A stretch of 64,000 nt of DNA from Paracoccaceae bacterium (lineage in GTDB: Bacteria > Pseudomonadota > Alphaproteobacteria > Rhodobacterales > Rhodobacteraceae): contig JBKBQB010000006.1 in NCBI GenBank assembly GCA_046292785.1, positions 30,530 to 94,529 of the forward strand, in the 5' to 3' direction. Both the position numbers and the translations under genes were made by a program. The notes beneath the pieces are model-generated. The model saw nothing but the letters and a program-made list of their open reading frames with translations, ran no database searches and had not been told where the DNA came from. Below are positions 2,221 to 59,296 of the stretch, piece by piece. Each line of letters begins with the position of its first letter. Positions within the stretch are counted from its first letter, which is position 1.

Positions 2221-3711
2221 ATGAAAAACGACTCCCACACCGAAATGTGGATCGGCGGACGCTGGGAAAAAGGCGCCGAAGGCACCCGCCCGGTGATCAA
2301 CCCGGCCAACGGCGCCGTTTTTGCCCACGCACCCGAAGCCAGCCCCGCACAAGCCAATCAGGCGCTGGAATCGGCGCGCGCCGCCCAACCCGCATGGGGC
2401 CGGATGTCGCCGCTGCAACGCGGGCAGGTGATGCACCGCATCGCCGCCCTGATCCGCGAACACGCCGAACCGCTGGCGCAGCTGGTGGTCACCGAACAGG
2501 GCAAACCCATCACCGAAGCGCGCGGCGAAATCGGCGGCGCCGCCGAATTCTTCACCTATTTTGCCGAATTCGCCCGCCGCATCCAGGGCGAGATCCTGCC
2601 CTCTGACGCGCCCGGCGAACAAATCTGGATCCAGCGCGTGCCGGTCGGCGTGGTGGTGGCCATCATCCCATGGAACTACCCCGCCGCCCTTGTCAGCCGC
2701 AAGGTGGCCCCCGCCCTGATCGCGGGCAACACCATCGTCTTGAAACCGCATGAGGAAACCCCGCTCTCCGCCCTCTACATGGCGCGGCTGTTCGAGCAGG
2801 CCGGGGTGCCTGCGGGTGTGGTCAACATCATCACCGGGGCCGGCGCGACCGTCGGCGCCGCCCTGACCGCGCACCCGGATGTCGATCTTGTCACCATGAC
2901 CGGCAGCGTGCCCACCGGCCGCGCGATCATGGCCGCCGCCGCGCCCAATCTGGTGCCGGTCTCGCTGGAACTGGGCGGCAAGGCCCCGTTCATCGTGATG
3001 GAAGACGCCGATCTTGACCATGCGGTCGCCTCCGCCGTCACCTCGCGCTTCATGAACTGCGGGCAGGTCTGCATCTGCAACGAACGCATGCTGGTGCATG
3101 AAAAGATCTACGACAGCTTCGTCGCCCGCTTCGTTCAGGCCACCAAGGCCCTGCGTATGGGCGACCCGATGCTGGCCACCACCGATCTTGGCCCAAAGGT
3201 GTCGCAGCCCGAACTGGAAAAGGTGGAAAAGATCCTTGCCGCCGCGCTGAACGCCGGGGCCGAGCCACTGCTGCTGGGCGGCAGGCCCGATACCCCCCCG
3301 GTCGCTGGCGGCTACTGGCTGACCCCCACCGTGCTGGGCGGCATGACCCCCGACATGGCCATCATGCGCGACGAGGTGTTCGGCCCGGTCATCCCGGTGA
3401 TGAAGGTTTCGGGCTTTGACGAGGCGATGCACATCGCCAATGACAGCCGCTATGGCCTGTCCGCCTATCTGTTCACGCAGGACTACCGGCGCATCATGCA
3501 GGCGGTGGCGGATATCCGCTTTGGCGAGATCTACATCAACCGCATCGGGCCCGAGTCGTTGCAGGGCTATCACACCGGCTATCGCAACTCCGGCCCCGGC
3601 GGCGATGACGGCGTGCACGGGCTGGACTCCTACCTGCACAAGAAAACCGTTTACGTGAACTGGTCGGGCGGCTCCCCCGTCGCGCTGATGCCTTACGGCA
3701 AAGGTGCCTGA
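2221..3711 (+). CDS. NAD(P)-dependent aldehyde dehydrogenase
   Basis: ALDH signatures LELGGKAP and catalytic Cys context GQVCICNER; RBS GAAGGAGG upstream. Confidence 0.9.
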   Translation: MKNDSHTEMWIGGRWEKGAEGTRPVINPANGAVFAHAPEASPAQANQALESARAAQPAWGRMSPLQRGQVMHRIAALIREHAEPLAQLVVTEQGKPITEARGEIGGAAEFFTYFAEFARRIQGEILPSDAPGEQIWIQRVPVGVVVAIIPWNYPAALVSRKVAPALIAGNTIVLKPHEETPLSALYMARLFEQAGVPAGVVNIITGAGATVGAALTAHPDVDLVTMTGSVPTGRAIMAAAAPNLVPVSLELGGKAPFIVMEDADLDHAVASAVTSRFMNCGQVCICNERMLVHEKIYDSFVARFVQATKALRMGDPMLATTDLGPKVSQPELEKVEKILAAALNAGAEPLLLGGRPDTPPVAGGYWLTPTVLGGMTPDMAIMRDEVFGPVIPVMKVSGFDEAMHIANDSRYGLSAYLFTQDYRRIMQAVADIRFGEIYINRIGPESLQGYHTGYRNSGPGGDDGVHGLDSYLHKKTVYVNWSGGSPVALMPYGKGA

Positions 3712-3735
3712 CGGACGATCCCTGGTGTCTCTGGT

Positions 3736-3758
3736 CCCGGCAAAATGCTTTGCCGGGG
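3736..3758 (+). terminator. hairpin downstream of the aldehyde dehydrogenase gene
   Basis: CCCGGCAAA / TTTGCCGGG 9-bp stem; weak U tract. Confidence 0.45.
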
Positions 3759-4003
3759 CCTTGCTTCCCGCCCCCGCCCATCATCCGCTGATCGGTCCGT
3801 GGGCGGGGCAACAGTTCTGTGACGCCCCGAACGCGCTTATTTGCGCCTTAAGAGTCTTCGCTTGGCTGAACGCCTTTCCCTTGCTTTTCCTGTCTGCTAG
3901 AGCGATTGAATACACGCCGATCCTGAGTTTCTTGCGGACGCCACAGACTTGGCCTCCCATGGAAGCCCTCCAAACGCCCCTCTGATTTAGGAGATCTGAC
4001 TGG

Positions 4004-5218
4004 ATGACCAGTCCGATTGAGTTTCTACGTCGCAACGCCCCGTGGCTTTTTGCAGGGTTTCTGCTGACCTTTTCGTCCAGCTTCGGCCAAACCTTTTTCA
4101 TCGCGATCTTTGCAGGTGATATCCGGCACGAATTCGGCCTGACCAACGCGGGCTGGGGCGGCATCTATGCCGTGGCGACAATGGCTGCGGCCGCTGTCAT
4201 GGTCTTTGCCGGTGGCCTGACCGACAGGTTCCGCGTGCGGATCATCGCCCCGATCTGCCTGATCGGCCTGGCCTTTGCAACCGCGCTCATGGCGCTGTCG
4301 ACCAGTCTAGCGGTCTTGATATTCGGGATCTTCCTGTCGCGCCTGATGGGTCAGGGCATGATGATGCAGACCTCGATGGTGGCGATGTCGCGCTGGTTTG
4401 TCGCCACGCGCGGCCGCGCCATCTCCATCGCCTCGCTGGGCGTCGCCATGGGCGAGGCATTTTTGCCGGTGTCTTTCGTGGCATTGATGGTCTGGCTGGA
4501 CTGGCGCACGTTGTGGCTGATCGCCTCGCTGTTTCTGGTCGGTGCCGCCGGGGTGATGGTTCTGGTCCTGAAATCCGAACGCACGCCGCAGGCAATGGCC
4601 CGCGAAAATACCGCTGTGGGCATGTTCGGGCGCCAATGGACGCGGACCGACGCACTGCGCCACTGGCTGTTCTGGCTGACTTTGCCCGCGCTGCTTGGCC
4701 CCGCCGCTTTTGGCACCGCGTTCTTTTTCCATCAGGTGCATTTTGCCGAAGCCAAGGGCTGGGCGCATTTTGATCTGGTCACGCTGTTTCCGTTCTTCAG
4801 CGCCACCGCTGTCAGCTGCATGTTGCTGACCGGCTGGCTTGTCGACCGCATCGGATCCTCAAAGATCGCGGGCCTCTACCTTCTGCCCATGGCCGTCGGA
4901 TACTATCTGCTGGGAACCGCACAAGGGCTGGAACTCGCGGCTGTCGGGCTGGTGTTCATGGGCATTTCTGTCGGGGCCAACAACACCATGAACGCGGCAC
5001 TCTGGGCCGAATTCTACGGCACGGCAAACCTTGGCCGCGTCCGGGCGATGACCGGAGCCTTCATGGTGCTTGGCTCTGCTATCGGGCCGGGCCTGTGCGG
5101 CTGGTTGATCGACCAGGGCATCGACATGCCGCATCAGGCCTTTGGGTTCAGTGTCTATTTTGTTGTGGCAGCCGTGCTTGGCGCCATTGGCGGGCGACGG
5201 GCGGCGCGGTATCTGTGA
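4004..5218 (+). CDS. MFS transporter
   Basis: About 12 hydrophobic segments, GGLTDRFRVR loop motif between TM2 and TM3. Confidence 0.8.
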   Translation: MTSPIEFLRRNAPWLFAGFLLTFSSSFGQTFFIAIFAGDIRHEFGLTNAGWGGIYAVATMAAAAVMVFAGGLTDRFRVRIIAPICLIGLAFATALMALSTSLAVLIFGIFLSRLMGQGMMMQTSMVAMSRWFVATRGRAISIASLGVAMGEAFLPVSFVALMVWLDWRTLWLIASLFLVGAAGVMVLVLKSERTPQAMARENTAVGMFGRQWTRTDALRHWLFWLTLPALLGPAAFGTAFFFHQVHFAEAKGWAHFDLVTLFPFFSATAVSCMLLTGWLVDRIGSSKIAGLYLLPMAVGYYLLGTAQGLELAAVGLVFMGISVGANNTMNAALWAEFYGTANLGRVRAMTGAFMVLGSAIGPGLCGWLIDQGIDMPHQAFGFSVYFVVAAVLGAIGGRRAARYL

Positions 5219-20720: not shown

Positions 20721-22063
20721 CCCCGCCCAAACCCACCCCACGCCCAGACCGTGTGTCGCTATGGCGTTATCTGCGCCTGTTCCGGCACGATATCCTGTCG
20801 GCGCAGCCGGCGCGGCTCTACCGCGCATGGATGGCCGAGTTCCGCACACCGTTCTTCCGCAGTTACATGTGCAATGACCCGCACCTCATTGAGCTGGTGC
20901 TGAAATCCCGCCCCGATGATTTCCCGAAATCCAACCGCATCCGCGAAGGGCTGAACCCGCTGCTTGGCAACTCGGTCTTTGTGACAAATGGAGAGGTGTG
21001 GAAACGCCAACGCCGCATCATCGACCCCGCGTTCGAGGGCGGCCGGTTGCGCGACACCTTCCCCGCGATGTGGCAGGCGGCCGAGGCCACCACCGCCCGC
21101 CTGAGCGAAGGCACAGTCGAGGTGGAGGAGGAAATGAGCCACGCCGCCGCCGATGTGATCTTCCGCACGCTGTTCTCGATCCCGATCGAACACCAGACCG
21201 CGCAGGCGGTGTTCCATGAATTCCGCGCCTATCAGCGCACCCAGCCGATCCTGAACCTTGCCGCCTTTTTGCCGCTGCCGCGCTGGTTCCCCCGGATGCA
21301 CCGCCGCGCCACGCTGCAATCGGCAGCGAAAATCCGCGCGCTGATCACCGCCATGACCACCGCCCGCGCCTCCGAGATAGCGCAAGGCACCGCGCCCGAT
21401 GATCTGGCCACCAAGATCATGCAGACCGCCGACCCGCACACCGGCGAGACCTTCAACACCGAAGAAATGGTGGATCAGGTCGCGATCTTTTTTCTTGCCG
21501 GGCACGAGACCAGCGCCTCTGCCCTCGCCTGGGCGCTTTACCTGTTGGCAACCCACCCCGAGGCGCAGGCCCGCGTCGCGGCCGAGGCCGCCAGCCTGCC
21601 CGACAGCCCCGATTTCGCCGCGATGTCGCGACTGAAATTCACACGCGACGTGTTCCGCGAAACCCTGCGGCTTTACCCGCCGGTGCCGATGATGGTGCGC
21701 GAAAACACCTGTCCCGAAACCTTCCGCGACCGGCCTGTGGCCCCAGGCGCCCAGATTGTGCTTTCGCCCTGGCACCTGCACCGGCACGAACGGCTATGGA
21801 CCAATCCTGACGGGTTCGATCCTGACCGTTGGTCACGCGATGACAACAAGACCTGCGCCCGCGATGCCTATCTGCCGTTTTCAGCAGGCCCGCGCGTTTG
21901 CACGGGTGCAGGCTTTGCGATGGTCGAAGGCCCGCTTCTGCTGGCCCATCTGATCCGTGGCTGGCAGGTCGACGCCCTCGAAAATGACATCCCCGTTCCT
22001 GTCGCCCATCTTACCGTGCGCGCCGCAAACGGCATTCGCCTGCGCCTTACAAAACGCGGCTAG
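20717..22063 (+). CDS. cytochrome P450
   Basis: I-helix FLAGHETS, ExxR (ETLRLYPP), heme loop FSAGPRVCTGAGFA. Confidence 0.9.
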   Translation: MTPPKPTPRPDRVSLWRYLRLFRHDILSAQPARLYRAWMAEFRTPFFRSYMCNDPHLIELVLKSRPDDFPKSNRIREGLNPLLGNSVFVTNGEVWKRQRRIIDPAFEGGRLRDTFPAMWQAAEATTARLSEGTVEVEEEMSHAAADVIFRTLFSIPIEHQTAQAVFHEFRAYQRTQPILNLAAFLPLPRWFPRMHRRATLQSAAKIRALITAMTTARASEIAQGTAPDDLATKIMQTADPHTGETFNTEEMVDQVAIFFLAGHETSASALAWALYLLATHPEAQARVAAEAASLPDSPDFAAMSRLKFTRDVFRETLRLYPPVPMMVRENTCPETFRDRPVAPGAQIVLSPWHLHRHERLWTNPDGFDPDRWSRDDNKTCARDAYLPFSAGPRVCTGAGFAMVEGPLLLAHLIRGWQVDALENDIPVPVAHLTVRAANGIRLRLTKRG

Positions 22064-51603: not shown

Positions 51604-53397
51604 TCAATTCCGGACAGCTGTTAGACCATCAATGGCAGGGGCTTCAACCACTGGCCGGATGCCCAGCAGGGGAGCGATGCGGCGGGTGATCTCGGCGGCG
51701 ACCGGAACGGCGGTCCAGCCAGCGGTGCGGCGCGGCTCCGTGCCGGACGTTTCCACCGGCTCGTCCAGCGTCACCAGCACCACATAACGCGGATCAGAGG
51801 CGGGAAAGACCGAAGCGAAGGTATTGATCACCTTGTCTTTGTAATAACCGCCCGTGCGCTTTGGCTTGTCGGCGGTGCCGGTCTTGCCTGCGACCTCATA
51901 TCCCGGCACCTCTGCCATGCTGGCGGTGCCGCGTGTCACCACCTGCCGCAGCATCGAGACCGAGGCATCGGCCACCTCTTCGCGCATGACACGGGTGCCC
52001 GCGCGCGGGCCAGCCTGTTTGATCAACGTGGGTTTGACGGTGATTCCCCCGTTGGCGATGGTGGCATATGCGGTAGCAAGGTGCAGCGGGCTGGCCGACA
52101 TGCCATGACCGTAAGATGTGGTGATGGTGACGATATCGGGCCAGCGGGCGGGCAGTAGCGGGCGGGCACCGGGGGCTTCTGTCAGTTCGACCGGGGTGGA
52201 TTCAAACATGCCAAGCGACTTAAGAAACGCCTGCTGGCGCAAGCCACCGATCTGCAGCGCCATCTTTGCGGTGCCGACGTTGGAAGACTTTACCATGACA
52301 TCGGTTACCGAAAGCAGGGGGCCATAGTTCTTGCCCTGGAATTCCTTGATCCGGTGCTTGCCCCATTGCATGGGCGCGTTCGCGTCCACCAGAGTATCGG
52401 GCCCGACAAGGCCCAGCTCCATCGCTTGTGCGGCAGCAAATATCTTGAAGGTCGACCCCAGTTCATAGACCCCTTGAACCGCCCTGTTGAACAGCGGGCT
52501 GTCACCGGGTTCGGCGTCCTTTGGCAAAACCGGGTTGGGGCGGTTGTTGGGGTCAAAGGTGGGAAGGCTTGCCAGAGACAGGATTTCACCTGTCTTCACA
52601 TCCATGATGATGGCAGCACCGCCCTTGGCGTTCAGCATGCTGATGCCGGCGCCCAGGATTTCCTCGACTGCGGCCTGCACCGTCAGGTCAACCGACAGTT
52701 CCAGTGGGGTGGCCGACAGCGCCGGGTCGCGCAAGCGGGCATCCATTGCACGTTCCACACCGGCGGTGCCGATGACTTCGGCGGAATGCACGCCTTCGGC
52801 ACCAAAGGAGGTGCCGCCAAGGATATGGGCGGCCAGCGTGCCGTTGGGATACAGCCGCATTTCGCGCGGGCCAAACAGCAGGCCGGGATCGCCGATATCA
52901 TGCACGGCCTGCATCTGTTCGGGGCTGAGCACCTTGCGCAGCCAGATGAAGCTGCGGCCATCGGTGAAGCGGCGGGTCAGATCGTCGGCCTTGAGCTCGG
53001 GGAAAATGGCGGCCAACTCACCCGCGACGCGGGCCGGATCAACCATGTCCTTGGGATGTGCATACAGTGCATGCGTCAGCATGTTGGTGGCCAGCACCCG
53101 CCCGTTGCGGTCGGTGATATCGGCGCGTTGGGCCAGGATTTCCGCGCCTGCGGCCGAAGAGCGGGGCTCCGCCGCCTCGGTGGTGGCGACCAGCCCCATG
53201 CGTGCACCAATGGCCGAAAAAGCGACAAAAAATGCAAATCCAAGGATCAAAAGGCGCACTTCGGCACGCGAGCGGGACGCATCACGCAACTGTTCATGCC
53301 GCAATCGCAAATTTTCGCGTTCGATCACGTCGGGGTTTTCGCCTTGGGCGCGGGCCTTTAGGATCCGGGCAAGCGGGCGCAGCGGCGTGCGGGTCAT
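51604..53397 (-). CDS. ftsI: peptidoglycan D,D-transpeptidase FtsI (PBP3)
   Basis: STFK (ELGSTFKIF), SSN (VKSSNVG), KTGT (AGKTGTA); ATG 53397 overlaps the ftsL stop; the 167-codon upstream ORF extension is discarded. Confidence 0.9.
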   Translation of the reverse strand: MTRTPLRPLARILKARAQGENPDVIERENLRLRHEQLRDASRSRAEVRLLILGFAFFVAFSAIGARMGLVATTEAAEPRSSAAGAEILAQRADITDRNGRVLATNMLTHALYAHPKDMVDPARVAGELAAIFPELKADDLTRRFTDGRSFIWLRKVLSPEQMQAVHDIGDPGLLFGPREMRLYPNGTLAAHILGGTSFGAEGVHSAEVIGTAGVERAMDARLRDPALSATPLELSVDLTVQAAVEEILGAGISMLNAKGGAAIIMDVKTGEILSLASLPTFDPNNRPNPVLPKDAEPGDSPLFNRAVQGVYELGSTFKIFAAAQAMELGLVGPDTLVDANAPMQWGKHRIKEFQGKNYGPLLSVTDVMVKSSNVGTAKMALQIGGLRQQAFLKSLGMFESTPVELTEAPGARPLLPARWPDIVTITTSYGHGMSASPLHLATAYATIANGGITVKPTLIKQAGPRAGTRVMREEVADASVSMLRQVVTRGTASMAEVPGYEVAGKTGTADKPKRTGGYYKDKVINTFASVFPASDPRYVVLVTLDEPVETSGTEPRRTAGWTAVPVAAEITRRIAPLLGIRPVVEAPAIDGLTAVRN

Positions 53398-53756
53398 AGC
53401 GGCTCCTCCCCGGTGTTCAATTGGCCATTGACCATGACGGAGTTGTTGATATCGCCAAAGAACTCCTCGACCGCCGGATAGGACAGGTTGGCGGCATCGC
53501 CAAATTGCGTGGGTTCCAGCGGCATCAGGCCCAGAGTTTCGAAATTGGCCGAAGCCAGTTCGCGCAGACGGTCGGGGCGGTTCAAATAGGCCCATTCGGC
53601 GCGCTGCAAGGCAAGCGCTTCGCGCAGGCTGGCGATTTCGGAGTTCAGAGCAGACACCTCGCGCAGGGCTTGCCGCGTGTCGTAGTGTTCGCGGTAAGCC
53701 CAGAAACCAAGGCCCAGCACGGCGATGAACGACAGAACATAAATGACGGGGCGCAT
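53394..53756 (-). CDS. ftsL: cell division protein FtsL-like
   Basis: Single N-terminal TM plus coiled coil (EVSALNSEIASLREALALQRAEWAYL); position between rsmH and ftsI. Confidence 0.7.
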   Translation of the reverse strand: MRPVIYVLSFIAVLGLGFWAYREHYDTRQALREVSALNSEIASLREALALQRAEWAYLNRPDRLRELASANFETLGLMPLEPTQFGDAANLSYPAVEEFFGDINNSVMVNGQLNTGEEPL

Positions 53757-54764: not shown

Positions 54765-55277
54765 TCACCCGACCTTTGGGTAACGGCCAACCACCGCAAG
54801 GGCATCTTCGCCGTCGTCTTCATCGTCATCATCGTCGAACACATCGCGGTAGACATCGCCACGCCACAGCGAGAAGCGGTCGGTCGCACCGGCAAGGGCG
54901 GAGTCCACGCCATCCTTGATCATCTCGGGCGTGATGCCCAGCTTGTCCCGGACAGGGCCAGGCAGGACGATCCTGCCGTCATCATCAATGTCCACGGTTG
55001 CGGAACGGGTGACCAGATCACGTTCAGCCTTGATCCGGTCTTTGGTCCCCAAGGGAATGGTTTCGACCCAGCGGGCCAGCGCATCGGCGCCCGCCATCGA
55101 ATAGCAATCGCAGAACTGACGGCTTTTGCCGCCATAGACGATGACCATACGGGTGCGGGGGGTGTCAGAAGTGCGGGGATCGCCAGCGTCGAGGACACGT
55201 CGGAACGGCGCCGGGATCAGGACCCGGGCTTTGGAATCTACCTTCTGGTAGTATTCACCGCGAAACATATCCGACAT
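54765..55277 (-). CDS. mraZ: division/cell wall cluster transcriptional regulator MraZ
   Basis: Two MraZ/SpoVT-AbrB repeats ([15 protein letters not shown]; [16 protein letters not shown]), acidic C-terminal tail. Confidence 0.9.
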
Positions 55278-55333
55278 ATTGCCTGAGCTTGCGCCCGTCC
55301 CTTTCCGTCGTTGCGCCCCGTTTGCGGGGGTCT

Positions 55334-55380
55334 GAAATGAATACGGCGGACCGAGCTGCTGCCACTGCTCGATCCGCCGC
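55334..55380 (-). terminator. terminator/attenuator hairpin inside the mraZ leader
   Basis: On the - strand GGCGGATCGAGC-loop-GCTCGGTCCGCC (12 bp, one G-U) followed by GUAUUCAUUUC, about 55 nt before the mraZ ATG. Confidence 0.45.
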
Positions 55381-55550
55381 CTGTCCCATCGCTGGGCGTC
55401 CTGCTACGCGTGCCACCTGGGGGAGATGTCTGCTCGCTCGCGCGCCGGATCTCATGTTGTCTAAACGGGGTTGCCTGTATGAAGCCTGACTGTTTCGCCT
55501 GTTTGCGGTCTTAAGCTGCCGCTGCTGTTCGTACTGCCCGTCTCGATGAC
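55334..55550 (-). ncRNA. candidate UpsM-like 5'-leader-derived sRNA of the dcw cluster (ends inferred, 5' end unknown)
   Basis: Roughly 200-nt non-coding leader between the phased GGG boxes and the leader terminator; analogy to the R. sphaeroides mraZ leader. Confidence 0.3.
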
Positions 55551-55552
55551 CA

Positions 55553-55607
55553 AGGGATGCCATGGGATTATCTGGGAAGCAACGGGAAAGTTTGGGTACT
55601 TGCGGGG
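55553..55607. promoter_or_regulatory. six GGG boxes phased at exactly 10 bp (putative MraZ operator)
   Basis: aGGGa 55553, tGGGa 55563, tGGGa 55573, cGGGa 55583, tGGGt 55593, cGGGg 55603 on the + strand. Confidence 0.45.
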
Positions 55608-55908
55608 CAATAGGCACTCTGCGGCATGCTTGCCACAGCATCTAGGAGGCACTAAAAACAAAATACAGCGCGACTTATGGCAATCACGGTCGCGTGAACA
55701 CTAGATATAGTGAATGAAAATTTTCCCAGCCCCACCCGGCCAGATCCGAACTTTTTGGCGTCAGCCTGCGAAGAATACAGTTTCATGACAAAAATCAGCC
55801 GCGAAAACGCAAGAAACCGGAGTTTTCACTCCGATTTCCCAGAAAATCCCAAAGGCGTGATTCGGCGTGATTGCCGTTTCCCGCCTGATCCCGGCCAATC
55901 CCGCCGGC

Positions 55909-56994
55909 TCAGGCCATGCCGCCGGCAATCAGACGATGGGCAATCCTTGCATAGGCTTCTGCCTCGGGGACGTCCGTGGCGGCGATTGGGGTGCCGCTGT
56001 CACCTGCCTGACGGACGGCTAGGGTCAGGGGCAGTTCCCCAAGAAAGGGTAGATCAAGACGCTCGGCATCGGCCTTGACGCCACCATGACCAAAGATCTG
56101 CGTCTCATGCCCACAGTTGGGGCAGCAGAAGGTGGACATGTTCTCGATCAGACCCAACACCGGGGTTTTCAGCTTCAGGAACATATCCAGCGCCTTGCGC
56201 GCATCAAGCAGCGCCACATCCTGCGGGGTGGAAACAATGATCGCGCCGGTCAGTTGCGTACGCTGGCACAGGGTAAGCTGGATATCGCCGGTGCCGGGGG
56301 GCAGGTCGATCAGCAGGATATCCAGCTTGCCCCAGGCAACTTGTGTGAGGAGTTGCTGCAACGCGCCCATGATCATCGGGCCGCGCCAGATAACCGCTTC
56401 GTCATCCTTGAGCATCAGGCCCAGCGACATCATGGTGACGCCATGAGCGATGATCGGCTCGATGATCTTGCCATCCGGGCTGGCCGGGCGGCGGTTGACG
56501 CCCATCATCCTGGGCTGGCTGGGGCCGTAGATATCTGCATCCAGCAGGCCGACGCGGCGACCTTGGCGCGCAAGCGCTACGGCCAGGTTCGACGAGACGG
56601 TGGATTTTCCCACGCCACCCTTGCCCGAGCCAATGGCGATGATGCGGTCGATCCCAGCCAATTTCTGCGGGCCGCCCTGTTGTGGTGTAGGGTGCTGGCC
56701 GATCTTCAGGCTGGGAGCTGCCGGTTTGGCAGCGGGGCCATGGGCGGTGGTGACGGCCTGAACGACAGAGACGCCGGGCAGCGCGCGGACGGCGGCCTCC
56801 GCCAAGGGCTGAAGCGCAGCAATCTGCCGGGCCGATTCGGGATCAGGGGCCTCGATCACGAAACGAACGGTGGTTCCTTCGGTGGAATCATCGATCGTCA
56901 AAGCCCGGATCATGTCCTGCGACACCAAAGTTCCACCGCCGGGCAGTCTGATCCCGGCCAAAGCCGCCATCACATCGTTGCGCAAGACACCCAT
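55909..56994 (-). CDS. apbC: Mrp/NBP35-family iron-sulfur cluster carrier ATPase (ApbC)
   Basis: N-terminal DUF59-like domain, deviant Walker [18 protein letters not shown] motif. Confidence 0.9.
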
Positions 56995-57250
56995 TGTTGT
57001 TTTCCCTTTGCCTGTCCTTGCGGCACAGTTGCGGGCTTTGCCCAAAACCTCAAGGTTTGCTTGACCAAATGCTCAATTTTTACACGAAGCTGCTGTAATT
57101 AATGACGTTTTCATGACGCAAAGCCATGCGGTTGCTGCATGGCAGCATTGCGCATCCGGGCTATTGTGCAGATGCAGCATTTGCCCCATCTTACTAACAA
57201 CAACGCAGCAAAGCGCTGCATCTGAACCAAAACCAAGAGGCTAGAGTGTT

Positions 57251-57466
57251 ATGGCTTATGTAAATTCTTCACGCGCCACGACCTACGGCATCGCTGACCG
57301 GGCTGCGGCCATTGTCAAAAACATTCGGGTGGGTCTGGAACGTCGTCGCGTCTTCAAACAGACCGTGCGGGAACTCCAGGCGCTTTCGAACCGGGAACTG
57401 GCAGATCTGGGCATCCACCGCAGCATGATCAGCCGTGTCGCCAACGAGGCTGCCTACGGCAAGTGA
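57251..57466 (+). CDS. DUF1127 domain small protein
   Basis: 71 aa; C-terminal RELQALSNRELADLGIHRSMISRVANEA matches the DUF1127 pattern; RBS AAGAGG. Confidence 0.85.
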   Translation: MAYVNSSRATTYGIADRAAAIVKNIRVGLERRRVFKQTVRELQALSNRELADLGIHRSMISRVANEAAYGK

Positions 57467-57491
57467 TTGAGGCTGCCTACGGCAAGTGATT
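57446..57491 (+). repeat. perfect 23-bp tandem duplication spanning the DUF1127 stop codon
   Basis: GAGGCTGCCTACGGCAAGTGATT at 57446-57468 and again at 57469-57491. Confidence 0.95.
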
Positions 57492-57499
57492 TTTCTTTG

Positions 57500-57596
57500 C
57501 GAGACCCTCTCCTCCTCCCTGGGGTCTGTAGCAAAAGCGTCGGTGTCTACCTCCTCCCTGACGCCGACGCGCCTAAATCAGAGCATATGCTCTGAC
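57500..57596 (+). ncRNA. CcsR-like unit 1 (boundaries approximate)
   Basis: Hairpins 57502-57527 and 57537-57570 plus the perfect palindrome TCAGAGCATATGCTCTGA at 57578-57595. Confidence 0.5.
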
Positions 57597-57605
57597 CCGA
57601 TACGG

Positions 57606-57702
57606 GAAGCCCCTCCTCCTCCCTGGGCTTTTCGGAAAAGCGGCACCCTCCTTCCTCCTCCCTGAGGGTGCCGCGCCAAAAATTCGAGCGCCTCAACGCT
57701 CA
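57606..57702 (+). ncRNA. CcsR-like unit 2 (boundaries approximate)
   Basis: Hairpins 57607-57630 and 57640-57674 plus the small hairpin GAGCG/CGCTC at 57686-57701. Confidence 0.5.
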
Positions 57703-57896
57703 CCACAGTTCGAACGGCCCCTCCTCCTCCCTGGGCCGGTCGGATCAGCGGCGGCCCCCTCCTCCTCCCTGGGGTCGCCGCGCCCGAAATTCGAGCGTCT
57801 TGACGCTCACCACAGTTCGAACGGCCCCTCCTCCTCCCTGGGCCGGTCGGATCAGCGGCGGCCCCCTCCTCCTCCCTGGGGTCGCCGCGCCCGAAA
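57683..57896 (+). repeat. two tandem 107-bp units, 104/107 identical
   Basis: 57683-57789 versus 57790-57896 compared base by base; the only differences are CCTCAA versus TCTTGA in the loop of the GAGCG/CGCTC hairpin. Confidence 0.9.
57712..57809 (+). ncRNA. CcsR-like unit 3 (boundaries approximate)
   Basis: Two CCUCCUCCC hairpins (loops at 57723 and 57761) plus GAGCG/CGCTC at 57793-57808. Confidence 0.5.
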
Positions 57897-57915
57897 TATG
57901 GGCCTTCTGGCCCAC
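57819..57915 (+). ncRNA. CcsR-like unit 4 (boundaries approximate), near-identical to unit 3
   Basis: Loops at 57830 and 57868 plus the hairpin TGGGCC/GGCCCA at 57899-57914. Confidence 0.5.
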
Positions 57916-57923
57916 ATTCGTTC

Positions 57924-58006
57924 GGTCCTGCCCCCTCCTCCTCCCTAGGGTCGGACTGAAAAGCGGAACCTGCGCCCCCTCCTCCTCCCTGGGGTTCGGG
58001 TTCCCG
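57924..58006 (+). ncRNA. CcsR-like unit 5 (boundaries approximate)
   Basis: Loops at 57937 and 57981; stems GTCC..CCC/GGG..GGAC and GGAACC..CCCC/GGGG..GGTTCC. Confidence 0.45.
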
Positions 58007-58008
58007 GA

Positions 58009-58096
58009 TACGCCGACCCCCTCCTCCTCCCTGGGGTTGGTCGTGAATGATGCGGCGGCGCCCCTCCTCCTCCCTGGGCGTCGCCGTTTTCAGTTT
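58009..58096 (+). ncRNA. CcsR-like unit 6 with terminal intrinsic terminator (boundaries approximate)
   Basis: Loops at 58023 and 58066; the last stem GGCGGCGCCC/GGGCGTCGCC is followed by GTTTTCAGTTT. Confidence 0.5.
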
Positions 58097-58150
58097 CGGG
58101 GGTTGCGATTGCCGGATTGCGCCGGAATAGTCGCGACAAACGGGGGCGTT

Positions 58151-59296
58151 ATGCGGATTTCCTTGATCTCGGCGGCGGTTGTCGCGGCACTGGTCGGCTA
58201 CGGCTCCACCATCGCGCTGGTTCTGGCGGCGGCTTTGGCCGTTGGGGCCGATGCAGGACAGACCGCAAGCTGGGTGCTGGCAATCTCCTTGGCCAAAGCG
58301 CTGGGGTCGGCTTGGCTGTCGGCCTGGAATCGGGTGCCGGTGGTGCTGGCCTGGTCCACACCGGGGGCGGCGCTGATTGCAGCGACGACCGGAATCACCA
58401 TGCCGCAAGCGGTGGGGGCTTTTGTGCTGGCAGGCGCACTGGTCGCACTGACGGCAGCCGTGCGGCCTCTGGGCCGATTGGTCGCGGCCATTCCCGATGG
58501 CATTGCAGCGGCAATGCTGGCGGGGGTGCTGCTGCCGTTTTGCCTGCGCGGTGCGGGGGCGGCAGCGGCCGCACCGTGGTTGGTCTTGCCGATGGTGGCA
58601 GTGTTTGCGCTGGTGCGGCTGTGGAACCCGGCGCTGGCGGTGCTGGCAGCGCTGAGCGCGGGCGTGGCGCTGGCATTTGGCACCGGCGCGGCTGTGTTGC
58701 CCGTGCTCGCGTTCCCGGCCCCTGCCCCGGTGTTTGTGATGCCAGAGTGGAACCTGCGCGTGCTGATCGGGCTGGGGGTGCCTCTGTATCTGGTGACGAT
58801 GGCAAGCCAGAACCTGCCAGGATTTGCCGTGATGCGGGCGGCGGGCTATCAGCCGCCGGTGACGCGGGCGCTGGCGGTGACGGGGGGGATTTCTGCCGTG
58901 TCTGCACTGTTCGGCGCCCATACCATCAACATGGCGGCGATCACGGCGGCGATCTGCATGGGCGATGATGTGCATCCCGACCGCGACCAGCGCTGGAAGG
59001 TGGGGTTGGCCTATGCGGCTGCATGGGTTTTGCTGGGCCTGTGCTCGCCCGCGATTCTGGTGCTGCTGGGCGCTTTGCCGCCGCAAGTGATGGTCGCGCT
59101 GGTGGCGCTGGCGCTGCTGGGGCCGCTGATGGGGGCACTGGCCGGGGCGTTTGCAGTGCTGGAGACGCGGTTTGCCGCGACGATCACGCTGGCGGTAGGC
59201 GGATCGGGGGTGGTGGTGTTTGGCGTGGGGGCCGCGTTCTGGGGGTTGGCCGCGGGATTGGTGGTGTTCGGACTGGAGCGGGCCAAACGCGGCTGA
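58151..59296 (+). CDS. benE: BenE-family benzoate/H+ symporter-like transporter
   Basis: MRISLISAAVVAALVGYGSTIALVL... multi-TM BenE-like pattern; the 161 upstream codons of ORF 57668-59296 run through the hairpin array and are discarded. Confidence 0.8.
   Translation: MRISLISAAVVAALVGYGSTIALVLAAALAVGADAGQTASWVLAISLAKALGSAWLSAWNRVPVVLAWSTPGAALIAATTGITMPQAVGAFVLAGALVALTAAVRPLGRLVAAIPDGIAAAMLAGVLLPFCLRGAGAAAAAPWLVLPMVAVFALVRLWNPALAVLAALSAGVALAFGTGAAVLPVLAFPAPAPVFVMPEWNLRVLIGLGVPLYLVTMASQNLPGFAVMRAAGYQPPVTRALAVTGGISAVSALFGAHTINMAAITAAICMGDDVHPDRDQRWKVGLAYAAAWVLLGLCSPAILVLLGALPPQVMVALVALALLGPLMGALAGAFAVLETRFAATITLAVGGSGVVVFGVGAAFWGLAAGLVVFGLERAKRG

What the first reader, a model, noticed from the sequence alone, without database searches (positions are those of the whole stretch)
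57500..58096. Expanded tandem array of 12 CCUCCUCCC-loop hairpins downstream of a DUF1127 gene (CcsR/cuckoo-type sRNA cluster)
The sequence shows twelve copies of CCTCCTCCC, most extended to CCTCCTCCTCCCT. Each sits between complementary GC-rich arms, for example AGACCC/GGGTCT, GCGTCGGTGTC/GACGCCGACGC and GCGGCACCCTC/GAGGGTGCCGC. Every motif is therefore presented in a hairpin loop. The hairpins pair up, with loops 38-44 nt apart, into about six units. Four units are followed by a short third hairpin, and the last ends in a stem plus T run. The array begins 34 nt after the stop of a 71-aa DUF1127 ORF. This matches what I know of Rhodobacter sphaeroides: four homologous CcsR sRNAs, each with two CCUCCUCCC loops, are co-transcribed with a DUF1127 gene and processed, and they act on C1 metabolism and pyruvate dehydrogenase mRNAs under stress. 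Here the copy number is higher (12 loops against 8). The loop sequence complements G-rich Shine-Dalgarno regions (GGGAGGAGG). The ORF track reports 500-aa ORFs on both strands across the region; these are artefacts of the repeat.
Basis: partly seen in the sequence, partly recalled or inferred. Interest (0 to 1): 0.75.

Follow-up and report, generated by a model that had tools for sequence, protein, structure and literature searches.

The report
ccaF1–CcsR "cuckoo" small-RNA operon
This is the expected copy, in an uncultured Paracoccaceae bacterium, of a known stress operon: a small DUF1127 RNA-binding protein gene followed by an array of small RNAs whose 12 hairpin loops mimic the ribosome's anti-Shine-Dalgarno sequence. 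Having 12 loops is normal for this genus, not a special expansion.

Summary
There are twelve exact CCTCCTCCC motifs on the + strand at 57511-58074 (0.55 expected by chance) and none elsewhere in the window. Each sits in a 12-14 nt hairpin loop. The arrangement is four two-hairpin units, each followed by a short spacer hairpin, then a four-hairpin tail whose last stem is followed by a U-run.

The interpretation also holds. The upstream 71-aa ORF is a DUF1127 protein, about 60% identical to the Cereibacter protein and the same length. The mraZ–mrp–ccaF1–array–benE synteny is conserved. An RpoH-type promoter (TTG-N17-CCCCATCT, 57164-57191) is shared with Cereibacter. Rfam CcsR1 and ar14 models hit every unit (E down to 2e-14).

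These scores fall below Rfam's gathering cut-off. So do the corresponding CcsR2-4-position units in Cereibacter species (39-54 bits), so this does not count against membership. Stems are supported by compensatory changes: 17 pairs against 1-4 in slid controls.

"Expanded" is true only relative to Cereibacter (8 loops). Pseudotabrizicola relatives carry 10-16, usually 12, and clusters of up to nine two-hairpin RNAs were published in 2015. This is a new member of a known kind and of low interest. Expression, processing and targets are inferred by homology only.

The parts
57123..57143 (.). Conserved palindrome GCCATGC-N7-GCATGGC upstream of the promoter. It may be a regulator binding site; its function is unknown.
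   Evidence: Invariant block in the upstream alignment across genera. Present upstream of ccaF1 in 36 of 80 related loci and only once in the window.
57164..57191 (+). RpoH (sigma-32)-type promoter TTGTGCAGATGCAGCATTTGCCCCATCT. If +1 is about 57200, TTG falls at -36..-34, A at -12 and T at -9.
   Evidence: The same motif, at the same distance from ccaF1, occurs in 48 of 77 related loci including Cereibacter, and in 0 shuffled controls. The geometry matches the RpoHI/RpoHII logo description in PMC3441632. The R. sphaeroides operon is RpoHI/HII-dependent (PMC8034643). Promoter activity here is inferred.
57251..57466 (+). ccaF1 orthologue: a 71-aa DUF1127 protein. The Shine-Dalgarno GAGG lies at 57237-57240.
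   Evidence: Pfam PF06568, E 4e-13. 90-94% identical to Pseudotabrizicola proteins and 59% to the 71-aa Cereibacter azotoformans protein, which sits before a 106-bit CcsR1 hit.
57446..57491 (+). Exact 23-nt tandem duplication (GAGGCTGCCTACGGCAAGTGATT x2) spanning the ccaF1 stop codon. It leaves the protein unchanged and moves the array 23 nt downstream.
   Evidence: TRF reports 2.0 copies at 100% match. Absent from six orthologous loci.
57492..57595 (+). Unit 1 (CcsR1-like): hairpins 57496-57535 and 57537-57570 with loops at 57511 and 57550, followed by spacer hairpin 57578-57595.
   Evidence: Rfam CcsR1 61.4 bits, E 2.2e-14. Fold. Compensatory changes in helices 2-4.
57599..57701 (+). Unit 2: hairpins 57603-57634 and 57640-57674, followed by spacer hairpin 57686-57701.
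   Evidence: Rfam CcsR1 57.8 bits, E 2.5e-13. Three compensatory pairs in helix 5.
57704..57810 (+). Unit 3: hairpins 57708-57745 and 57748-57781, followed by spacer hairpin 57793-57808.
   Evidence: Rfam CcsR1 44.5 bits and ar14 45.2 bits. Part of the 107-nt tandem period.
57811..57917 (+). Unit 4, a near-identical copy of unit 3: hairpins 57815-57852 and 57855-57888, followed by spacer hairpin 57899-57914.
   Evidence: Rfam ar14 52.2 bits and CcsR1 44.5 bits. TRF period 107, 91% matches.
57918..58096 (+). Four-hairpin tail: hairpins 57921-57960, 57965-58004, 58009-58045 and 58052-58087, with loops 44/42/43 nt apart and no spacer hairpins. The last 12-bp G+C-rich stem is followed by UUUUCAGUUUC and is the likely intrinsic terminator.
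   Evidence: Fold. Rfam ar14 48.1 bits (57958-58092) and CcsR1 43.5 bits (58007-58092). Helix 19 and the T-run are invariant in 7 orthologous arrays. Termination is inferred.
58151..59296 (+). benE (benzoate membrane transport protein family), the downstream neighbour. It is not part of the sRNA operon but marks its 3' boundary.
   Evidence: Pfam BenE, E 5.3e-97 over residues 3-373 of 381. Located downstream of the array in 40 of 80 related loci.

Best explanation
The stretch 57164-58096 (+) is the orthologue of the Cereibacter (Rhodobacter) sphaeroides ccaF1-ccsR operon, in an uncultured Paracoccaceae bacterium close to Pseudotabrizicola.

Proposed mechanism:
1. An RpoH-type stress promoter drives one transcript of about 0.9 kb.
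2. The transcript encodes the 71-aa DUF1127 RNA-binding protein CcaF1. Its 3' UTR carries twelve hairpins, each presenting the anti-Shine-Dalgarno-like sequence CCUCCUCCC in its loop.
3. By homology, RNase E cuts in the U-rich or GUUCGAA-type single-stranded linkers. This would release four CcsR-type sRNAs of about 80-105 nt, each with two hairpins, plus a terminal four-hairpin RNA that ends at the intrinsic terminator.
4. CcaF1 modulates the maturation and stability of these RNAs.
5. The loops base-pair with G-rich ribosome-binding regions of target mRNAs. In R. sphaeroides the target is flhR, which affects C1 metabolism and pyruvate dehydrogenase.

Shown here: the motif array, the hairpins and their covariation, the covariance-model similarity, orthology and synteny of the protein and locus, and conservation of the promoter motif.

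Inferred from the R. sphaeroides literature: transcription, stress induction, processing, CcaF1 action and targets.
For: - Motif array: 12 exact motifs against 0.55 expected, all on one strand.
- Structure: all motifs lie in hairpin loops, z = -9.3.
- Rfam: CcsR1 (RF02791) E 2.2e-14, 2.5e-13, 2.2e-9 (twice) and 4.4e-9. ar14 (RF02344) E 2e-8 to 2e-6, on the + strand only.
- Threshold context: units at the CcsR2-4 positions in Cereibacter species score 39-54 bits, the same sub-threshold range. Sister species L001 reaches 68.8 bits for unit 1.
- Protein: DUF1127, E 4e-13. 71 aa, invariant C-terminal half, 59% identical to the Cereibacter protein.
- Synteny: Mrp lies upstream in 79 of 80 loci, MraZ in 69 of 80, and BenE downstream in 40 of 80, Cereibacter included.
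- Hairpin arms across genera: of 669 motifs in 81 sequences, 96.7% have a stem of at least 5 bp, against 15.5% with shuffled flanks. There are 313 distinct 5' arms.
- Orthologous alignment: 95.1% of cells paired, 17 pairs with compensatory changes against 1-4 in slid controls, and 0 of 500 shuffles reach this.
- Promoter: TTG-N17-CCCCATnT conserved in 48 of 77 loci and in 0 shuffles, with the geometry described in PMC3441632.
- Literature: PMC8034643 and PMC4615179 describe this arrangement (CIN1) in Rhodobacteraceae.
Against: - No unit reaches Rfam's gathering score: the best is 61.4 bits against 65.3, and the default Rfam scan returns nothing.
- Unit 5 (57920-58002) scores only 14 bits with the CcsR1 model.
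- There are no expression data for this uncultured organism, so transcription, processing sites and targets are untested.
- The tail differs from Cereibacter azotoformans (L024). There a separate hairpin without the motif, followed by a T-run, lies after the last unit and looks like the terminator. Here the last motif-bearing hairpin is the only terminator candidate.
Confidence: 0.9

Rival explanations
1. The unprocessed multi-hairpin RNA, or its four-hairpin tail, acts mainly as a multivalent sponge or scaffold. It would titrate a protein (Hfq, CcaF1 or another C/U-loop binder) or many G-rich mRNAs at once, in the manner of CsrB/RsmZ-type RNAs, rather than working as independent trans-acting sRNAs.
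For: - There are 12 near-identical loops on one transcript, and copy number varies from 1 to 16 among relatives, as might be expected for a dosage-type element.
- The four tail hairpins lack spacer hairpins and obvious linkers.
- Hfq and CcaF1 both affect CcsR levels in R. sphaeroides.
Against: - In R. sphaeroides the units are released by RNase E and act on flhR mRNA by base pairing (PMC8034643).
- The linkers here are homologous to those in Cereibacter, for example GTTCGAA before the units.
- No protein is known to bind CCUCCUCCC loops specifically.
Confidence: 0.06
2. The array is a cis-acting leader of the downstream benE transporter gene. benE lies on the same strand, with its ATG 55-60 nt after the terminator-like hairpin, so read-through or attenuation at that hairpin could control benE.
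For: Same strand and close spacing. benE follows the array in 40 of 80 related loci.
Against: - benE is absent downstream in about half of the related loci, while the array and ccaF1 persist.
- The last hairpin plus T-run is invariant and terminator-like.
- The literature places the array in the 3' UTR of ccaF1, ended by a terminator.
Confidence: 0.03
3. The array is non-functional, low-complexity or REP-like intergenic repeat DNA that happens to be C/T-rich and palindromic.
For: Units 3 and 4 are near-identical tandem copies, which is typical of unstable repeats. Copy number also varies between species.
Against: - The motif occurs only at this locus and on one strand, in all 79 related loci where it was found and in the window. 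One stray minus-strand copy, in L012, is the only exception; L008 ends just after the gene and shows no motif.
- Loops are invariant while the arms co-vary.
- Covariance-model hits are significant.
- Homologous RNAs have been characterised experimentally.
Confidence: 0.01

Closest known systems
CcsR1-4 (RSs0680a-d) and CcaF1 (RSP_6037) of Cereibacter/Rhodobacter sphaeroides; Rfam RF02791
   Same: - A 71-aa DUF1127 gene followed, in its 3' UTR, by tandem two-hairpin units with CCUCCUCCC loops.
- Spacer hairpins and GTTCGAA-type linkers.
- An RpoH-type promoter motif.
- The same mraZ-mrp-ccaF1-array-benE neighbourhood.
   Different: - 12 loops instead of 8.
- The array ends in a four-hairpin module whose last motif-bearing hairpin is the terminator candidate. 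In C. azotoformans a separate motif-less hairpin plus T-run follows the last unit.
- Unit 1 scores 61 bits against 106 bits in Cereibacter.
- A 23-nt duplication sits at the stop codon.
Cuckoo RNA family, conserved intergenic neighbourhood CIN1 (Reinkensmeier & Giegerich 2015, PMC4615179)
   Same: It fits the published description. In Rhodobacteraceae, two-hairpin (HP2) cuckoo RNAs occur in clusters next to a DUF1127 gene, in variable numbers of up to 9 copies. Some clusters start with an HP2 series and end in another structural variant.
   Different: None in kind. This genome and genus were simply not in the 2015 survey.
NfeR1 / ar14 (Rfam RF02344) of Sinorhizobium meliloti
   Same: Three-hairpin variant with the same anti-SD loops. 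The ar14 model hits the window at 45-52 bits (E 1e-6 to 2e-8), below its gathering score of 58.8. It is also associated with a DUF1127 gene.
   Different: In S. meliloti the RNAs lie 5' of the DUF1127 gene, are single three-hairpin RNAs rather than a long tandem array, and respond to nitrogen and salt.
6C RNA of Actinobacteria (Rfam RF01066)
   Same: Two hairpins with C-rich loops. Weak structural resemblance: 20-25 bits, E about 1-5.
   Different: The hits are not significant (gathering score 47). The phylum, loop sequence and genomic context all differ. This is an analogy only.

Membership tests
CcsR / cuckoo RNA (CIN1 subgroup) | Adjacent stem-loops, each presenting CCUCCUCCC in the loop | tested here: met
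   12 of 12 motifs lie in 12-14 nt hairpin loops.
CcsR / cuckoo RNA (CIN1 subgroup) | Covariance-model match to Rfam RF02791 (CcsR1) at or above the gathering score of 65.3 bits | tested here: inconclusive
   The best hit is 61.4 bits (E 2.2e-14) and the other units score 14-58 bits, so there are no gathering-level hits. The model is specific to CcsR1. Units at the CcsR2-4 positions in Cereibacter score 39-54 bits, and sister species L001 reaches 68.8 for unit 1. The hits are significant but below the curated cut-off.
CcsR / cuckoo RNA (CIN1 subgroup) | Adjacent to a DUF1127 gene on the same strand (in Rhodobacteraceae, in its 3' UTR) | tested here: met
   The DUF1127 ORF 57251-57466 ends 30 nt before the outer stem of the first hairpin. 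The same arrangement holds in 79 of the 80 related loci; L008 ends just after the gene.
CcsR / cuckoo RNA (CIN1 subgroup) | Stems conserved by compensatory change while the loops stay invariant | tested here: met
   17 pairs with changes on both sides against 1-4 in slid controls, and 95.1% of cells paired. Across genera, 96.7% of 669 motifs have a stem of at least 5 bp, with 313 distinct arms.
CcsR / cuckoo RNA (CIN1 subgroup) | RpoHI/RpoHII-dependent (stress-induced) transcription | tested here: inconclusive
   A conserved TTG-N17-CCCCATCT motif with the published -36/-12/-9 geometry is shared with Cereibacter. This is sequence evidence only; induction was not tested.
CcsR / cuckoo RNA (CIN1 subgroup) | Co-transcription with the DUF1127 gene and RNase E processing into sRNAs of about 70-100 nt; dependence on Hfq and CcaF1 | not testable with these tools
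   This requires RNA-seq or Northern data. The only evidence here is homologous single-stranded linkers (UUUUUCUUUG, AGUUCGAA) at the unit boundaries.
CcsR / cuckoo RNA (CIN1 subgroup) | Base-pairing of the loops with G-rich ribosome-binding regions of targets (flhR in R. sphaeroides) | not tested
   The genome beyond this 64-kb window is not available. Within the window only a few SD-like complements were found, for example GGGGAGGAG before the ftsI-like ORF. These are leads only.
CcaF1 (DUF1127 RNA-binding protein) | Small protein with a DUF1127 domain, orthologous to RSP_6037 (71 aa) | tested here: met
   PF06568, E 4e-13. 71 aa, collinear, 59% identical to the Cereibacter azotoformans protein with 25 invariant columns. 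The locus is syntenic. RNA binding was not tested. No solved structure was found.
ar14 / NfeR (Rfam RF02344) | Three-hairpin architecture scoring at or above the gathering score of 58.8 bits | tested here: not met
   The best hit is 52.2 bits. These hits overlap the CcsR-type units, so the array is not filed as ar14.

The most novel reading that the evidence does not exclude
The longer arrays in this clade have 12-16 anti-SD loops on one transcript of about 0.9 kb. They end in a four-hairpin module that lacks spacer hairpins and doubles as the terminator. This may be more than extra copies of the same sRNA. The tail could be a distinct, stable multivalent RNA that sponges G-rich ribosome-binding sites or an RNA-binding protein. 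Copy number, which ranges from 1 to 16 across Paracoccaceae, would then tune the strength of a global translational brake under stress.
Probability: 0.08. Interest if true: 0.5.

Novelty: new member of a known kind. Interest (0 to 1): 0.2.

Why it matters
This finding mainly matters for annotation. A bona fide ccaF1-ccsR stress operon is invisible to a default Rfam scan, because RF02791 is tuned to the first unit in Cereibacter-like genomes. Arrays in other Paracoccaceae genera are therefore likely to be systematically under-annotated.

The comparison also yields a small resource. Loop copy number in 75 complete related loci ranges from 1 to 16, with a median of 8. The RpoH-type promoter and an upstream palindrome are conserved. 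Neighbouring units show signs of concerted evolution. None of this changes current understanding of how CcsR RNAs work.

Tried and rejected
- Default Rfam scan of the whole window at gathering thresholds: no hits. Hits appeared only in E-value mode on the region.
- RNAalifold on a MAFFT alignment of the individual units: it mis-drew hairpin 1 because of a one-column register shift between units. I did not use it. Instead I mapped the window's MFE hairpins onto an alignment of orthologous whole arrays.
- Generic promoter and terminator scan: no sigma-70 promoter found.
- Sequence search of the PDB with the DUF1127 protein: no hit.
- Rfam E-value scan of 55200-57260, looking for an UpsM-like RNA upstream of mraZ or any other RNA: only chance-level hits.
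- Simple low-complexity or REP-like repeat: considered and rejected because the arms co-vary and the locus and strand are fixed.
- benE leader: considered and largely rejected because benE is missing downstream in half of the related loci.
- I did not build my own covariance model, because the Rfam models plus direct pair counts answered the question.

Full report

Yes. CCTCCTCCC occurs 12 times in the 64-kb window. All copies are on the + strand between 57511 and 58074, against 0.55 expected by chance and a maximum of 4 in 100 shuffles. Nine of the twelve extend to CCTCCTCCTCCC, and all are followed by T.

Folding 57467-58110 as RNA gives -311.8 kcal/mol, z = -9.3 against dinucleotide shuffles. 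Every motif sits in a hairpin loop of 12-14 nt closed by G+C-rich stems. Motif-to-motif spacing is 39, 65, 39, 69, 38, 69, 38, 69, 44, 42, 43 nt.

This gives four two-hairpin units, each followed by a short spacer hairpin (57578-95, 57686-701, 57793-808, 57899-914). Four evenly spaced hairpins without spacers then close the array. The last stem (58052-58087, 12 bp) is followed by UUUUCAGUUUC.

Units 3 and 4 are near-identical copies with a 107-nt period.

**2. The surroundings**

- ORF 57251-57466 (+) encodes a 71-aa DUF1127 protein (PF06568, E 4e-13). GAGG lies 10 nt upstream of its ATG.
- mrp/apbC (55909-57045, -) and mraZ (54765-55277, -) lie upstream and run divergently.
- benE (58151-59296, +) lies downstream.
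One is benE with a spurious 5' extension from GTG 57668. The other, on the - strand, overlaps benE antisense and looks like a spurious open frame in G+C-rich DNA; I did not test its translation. The Pfam BenE match begins at residue 3 of the ORF counted from ATG 58151. In relatives, BenE alignments start at the equivalent position.

**3. Identity of the protein and locus**

The 71-aa protein is 100% identical to a protein from a Paracoccaceae MAG and 90-94% identical to Pseudotabrizicola proteins. It is 59% identical, collinear and equal in length to the Cereibacter azotoformans protein.

A pattern scan of 185,579 species-representative genomes returned 80 loci. Mrp is upstream in 79, MraZ in 69 and BenE downstream in 40, and the Cereibacter loci are among these. 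This is therefore the orthologous locus of the experimentally studied ccaF1-ccsR operon. In the cuckoo-RNA literature it is called CIN1 (PMC4615179; PMC8034643).

**4. RNA family tests**

A default Rfam scan returns nothing. In E-value mode on the region, the results are:

| Model | Gathering score | Hits in the window |
|---|---|---|
| RF02791 (CcsR1) | 65.3 bits | 61.4 (E 2.2e-14), 57.8, 44.5, 44.5, 43.5; weakly 14 for unit 5 |
| RF02344 (ar14) | 58.8 bits | 52.2, 48.1, 45.2, 43.2 |

All hits are on the + strand and below the gathering scores.

I ran the same search on related loci to judge what that shortfall means. In Cereibacter azotoformans and C. johrii, unit 1 scores 106 bits. The units at the CcsR2-4 positions score only 39-54 bits. 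The sister species P. algicola reaches 68.8 bits for unit 1. The curated cut-off therefore selects CcsR1 of Cereibacter-like genomes. Missing it does not argue against membership.

**5. Covariation**

- Across the window and 80 loci there are 669 motifs. Of these, 96.7% are flanked by an uninterrupted stem of at least 5 bp, against 15.5% when the 3' flank is shuffled. There are 313 different 5' arm sequences.
- Seven orthologous 12-loop arrays align collinearly.
- On that alignment, the window's 170 local base pairs are formed in 95.1% of cells. Seventeen pairs show changes on both sides, against 1-4 when partners are slid by 1-3 columns. None of 500 shuffles reaches this.
- The spacer hairpins vary most in sequence and loop length but keep their stems, for example GAGC/GCTC against GAGG/CCTC.

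The arms are therefore maintained by selection and the loops are invariant.

**6. Promoter and terminator**

Aligning the upstream regions of 14 loci from 7 genera shows invariant blocks. TTGTGCAGATGCAGCATTTGCCCCATCT lies at 57164-57191. If +1 is about 57200, TTG falls at -36..-34, A at -12 and T at -9. These are the positions reported as critical for R. sphaeroides RpoHI/RpoHII promoters, which resemble E. coli sigma-32 promoters (PMC3441632).

A regular expression for this motif hits 48 of 77 related upstream regions at a consistent distance from the start codon. It hits 0 shuffled controls. The R. sphaeroides operon is known to be RpoHI/HII-dependent. Promoter activity here remains an inference.

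The last hairpin and its T-run are invariant in the seven orthologous arrays, consistent with an intrinsic terminator.

**7. Is the array "expanded"?**

Only relative to Cereibacter, which has 8 loops.

- Among 75 related loci with a complete array, the exact-motif count ranges from 1 to 16 with a median of 8. Eleven loci have 12 or more.
- Among the Pseudotabrizicola-like loci closest to the window, most have 12. The others have 10, 13 (strain MZDSW-24AT) or 16 (P. sediminis).
- Reinkensmeier & Giegerich (2015) reported that two-hairpin cuckoo RNAs in Rhodobacteraceae occur in clusters "of up to 9 copies". They also reported that some clusters begin with two-hairpin units and end with another structural variant. 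That is the architecture seen here.

**8. Mechanism**

The steps below are inferred from R. sphaeroides.

1. Stress-induced transcription from the RpoH promoter gives a ccaF1-ccsR precursor.
2. RNase E cleaves in the single-stranded linkers. In R. sphaeroides the sites are GUUUCC, CUCUUC and ACUUC. Here the corresponding linkers are GAUUUUUCUUUG after the stop codon and ACAGUUCGAA before units 3 and 4. They are homologous to the C. azotoformans linkers.
3. CcaF1 binds the RNAs and modulates their levels.
4. The anti-SD loops pair with G-rich ribosome-binding regions. The R. sphaeroides target is flhR, with effects on C1 metabolism and pyruvate dehydrogenase.

None of these steps could be tested here.

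**9. Rivals**

- A sponge or scaffold role for the unprocessed or tail RNA is not excluded, but nothing specific supports it.
- A benE-leader role is unlikely, because benE is missing downstream in half of the related loci.
- Simple repeat DNA is refuted by covariation, strand and locus fidelity.

**10. Verdict**

The feature is a new member of a well-described family, the CcsR/cuckoo CIN1 operon. Its copy number is ordinary for its genus. Interest is low.

The most useful by-products are:
- the demonstration that Rfam's gathering threshold hides such arrays;
- the copy-number survey;
- the conserved promoter and palindrome;
- a window-specific 23-nt duplication at the ccaF1 stop codon.

Noticed in passing
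window 57446-57491: An exact 23-nt tandem duplication (GAGGCTGCCTACGGCAAGTGATT x2) includes the last six codons and the stop of ccaF1. It is absent from six orthologous Pseudotabrizicola-type loci. The protein is unchanged and the sRNA array is shifted 23 nt downstream. It could be a recent slippage event or an assembly artefact.
   Followed up: partly
window 57123-57143: A perfect palindrome, GCCATGC-N7-GCATGGC, lies about 20 nt upstream of the RpoH-type -35 element. It is conserved across genera (36 of 80 related loci) and occurs once in the window. It may be a binding site for an unknown regulator of ccaF1-ccsR or of the divergent mrp gene. The promoter spacer (TGCA..GCAGCA) is also unusually conserved.
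   Followed up: partly
window 57704-57917 (units 3 and 4); alignment A3 columns 298/313 and 420/435: Units 3 and 4 are near-identical within the window and share the stem variant CGGCCC/GGGCCG. Four relatives carry CGGCTC/GAGCCG in both units and two carry one of each. This suggests concerted evolution (gene conversion or recent re-duplication) between neighbouring units.
   Followed up: partly
window 51604-53410 (- strand): A 597-aa ORF that looks like FtsI/PBP3, in the dcw cluster downstream of mraZ, has the ribosome-binding sequence GGGGAGGAG 5 nt before its ATG. Eight nt of this complement the CcsR loop. Similar GGAGGAGG sites precede ORFs starting at 21134 (+) and 38258 (+). These are candidate targets only. 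The family assignment of the 597-aa ORF was judged by eye from the translation and not checked against Pfam.
   Followed up: no
window 55278-55908: A stretch of about 630 nt between mraZ and mrp has no convincing ORF. In R. sphaeroides the dcw 5' UTR gives rise to the sRNA UpsM, which CcaF1 binds (PMC8034643). No Rfam family matched here, so whether an UpsM-like RNA is present is unknown.
   Followed up: partly
L007 (Pseudotabrizicola sediminis) 3238-4037; L078 (Frigidibacter sp. MR17.24) 3251-3820: The largest arrays found among related genomes have 16 and 13 exact motifs, with runs of hairpins spaced about 42 nt apart in mid-array. This shows that multi-hairpin (HP4-like) modules can also be internal. 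At the other extreme, some Rhodobacter-labelled MAG loci (L055, L060, L067) retain only 1-2 exact motifs.
   Followed up: no
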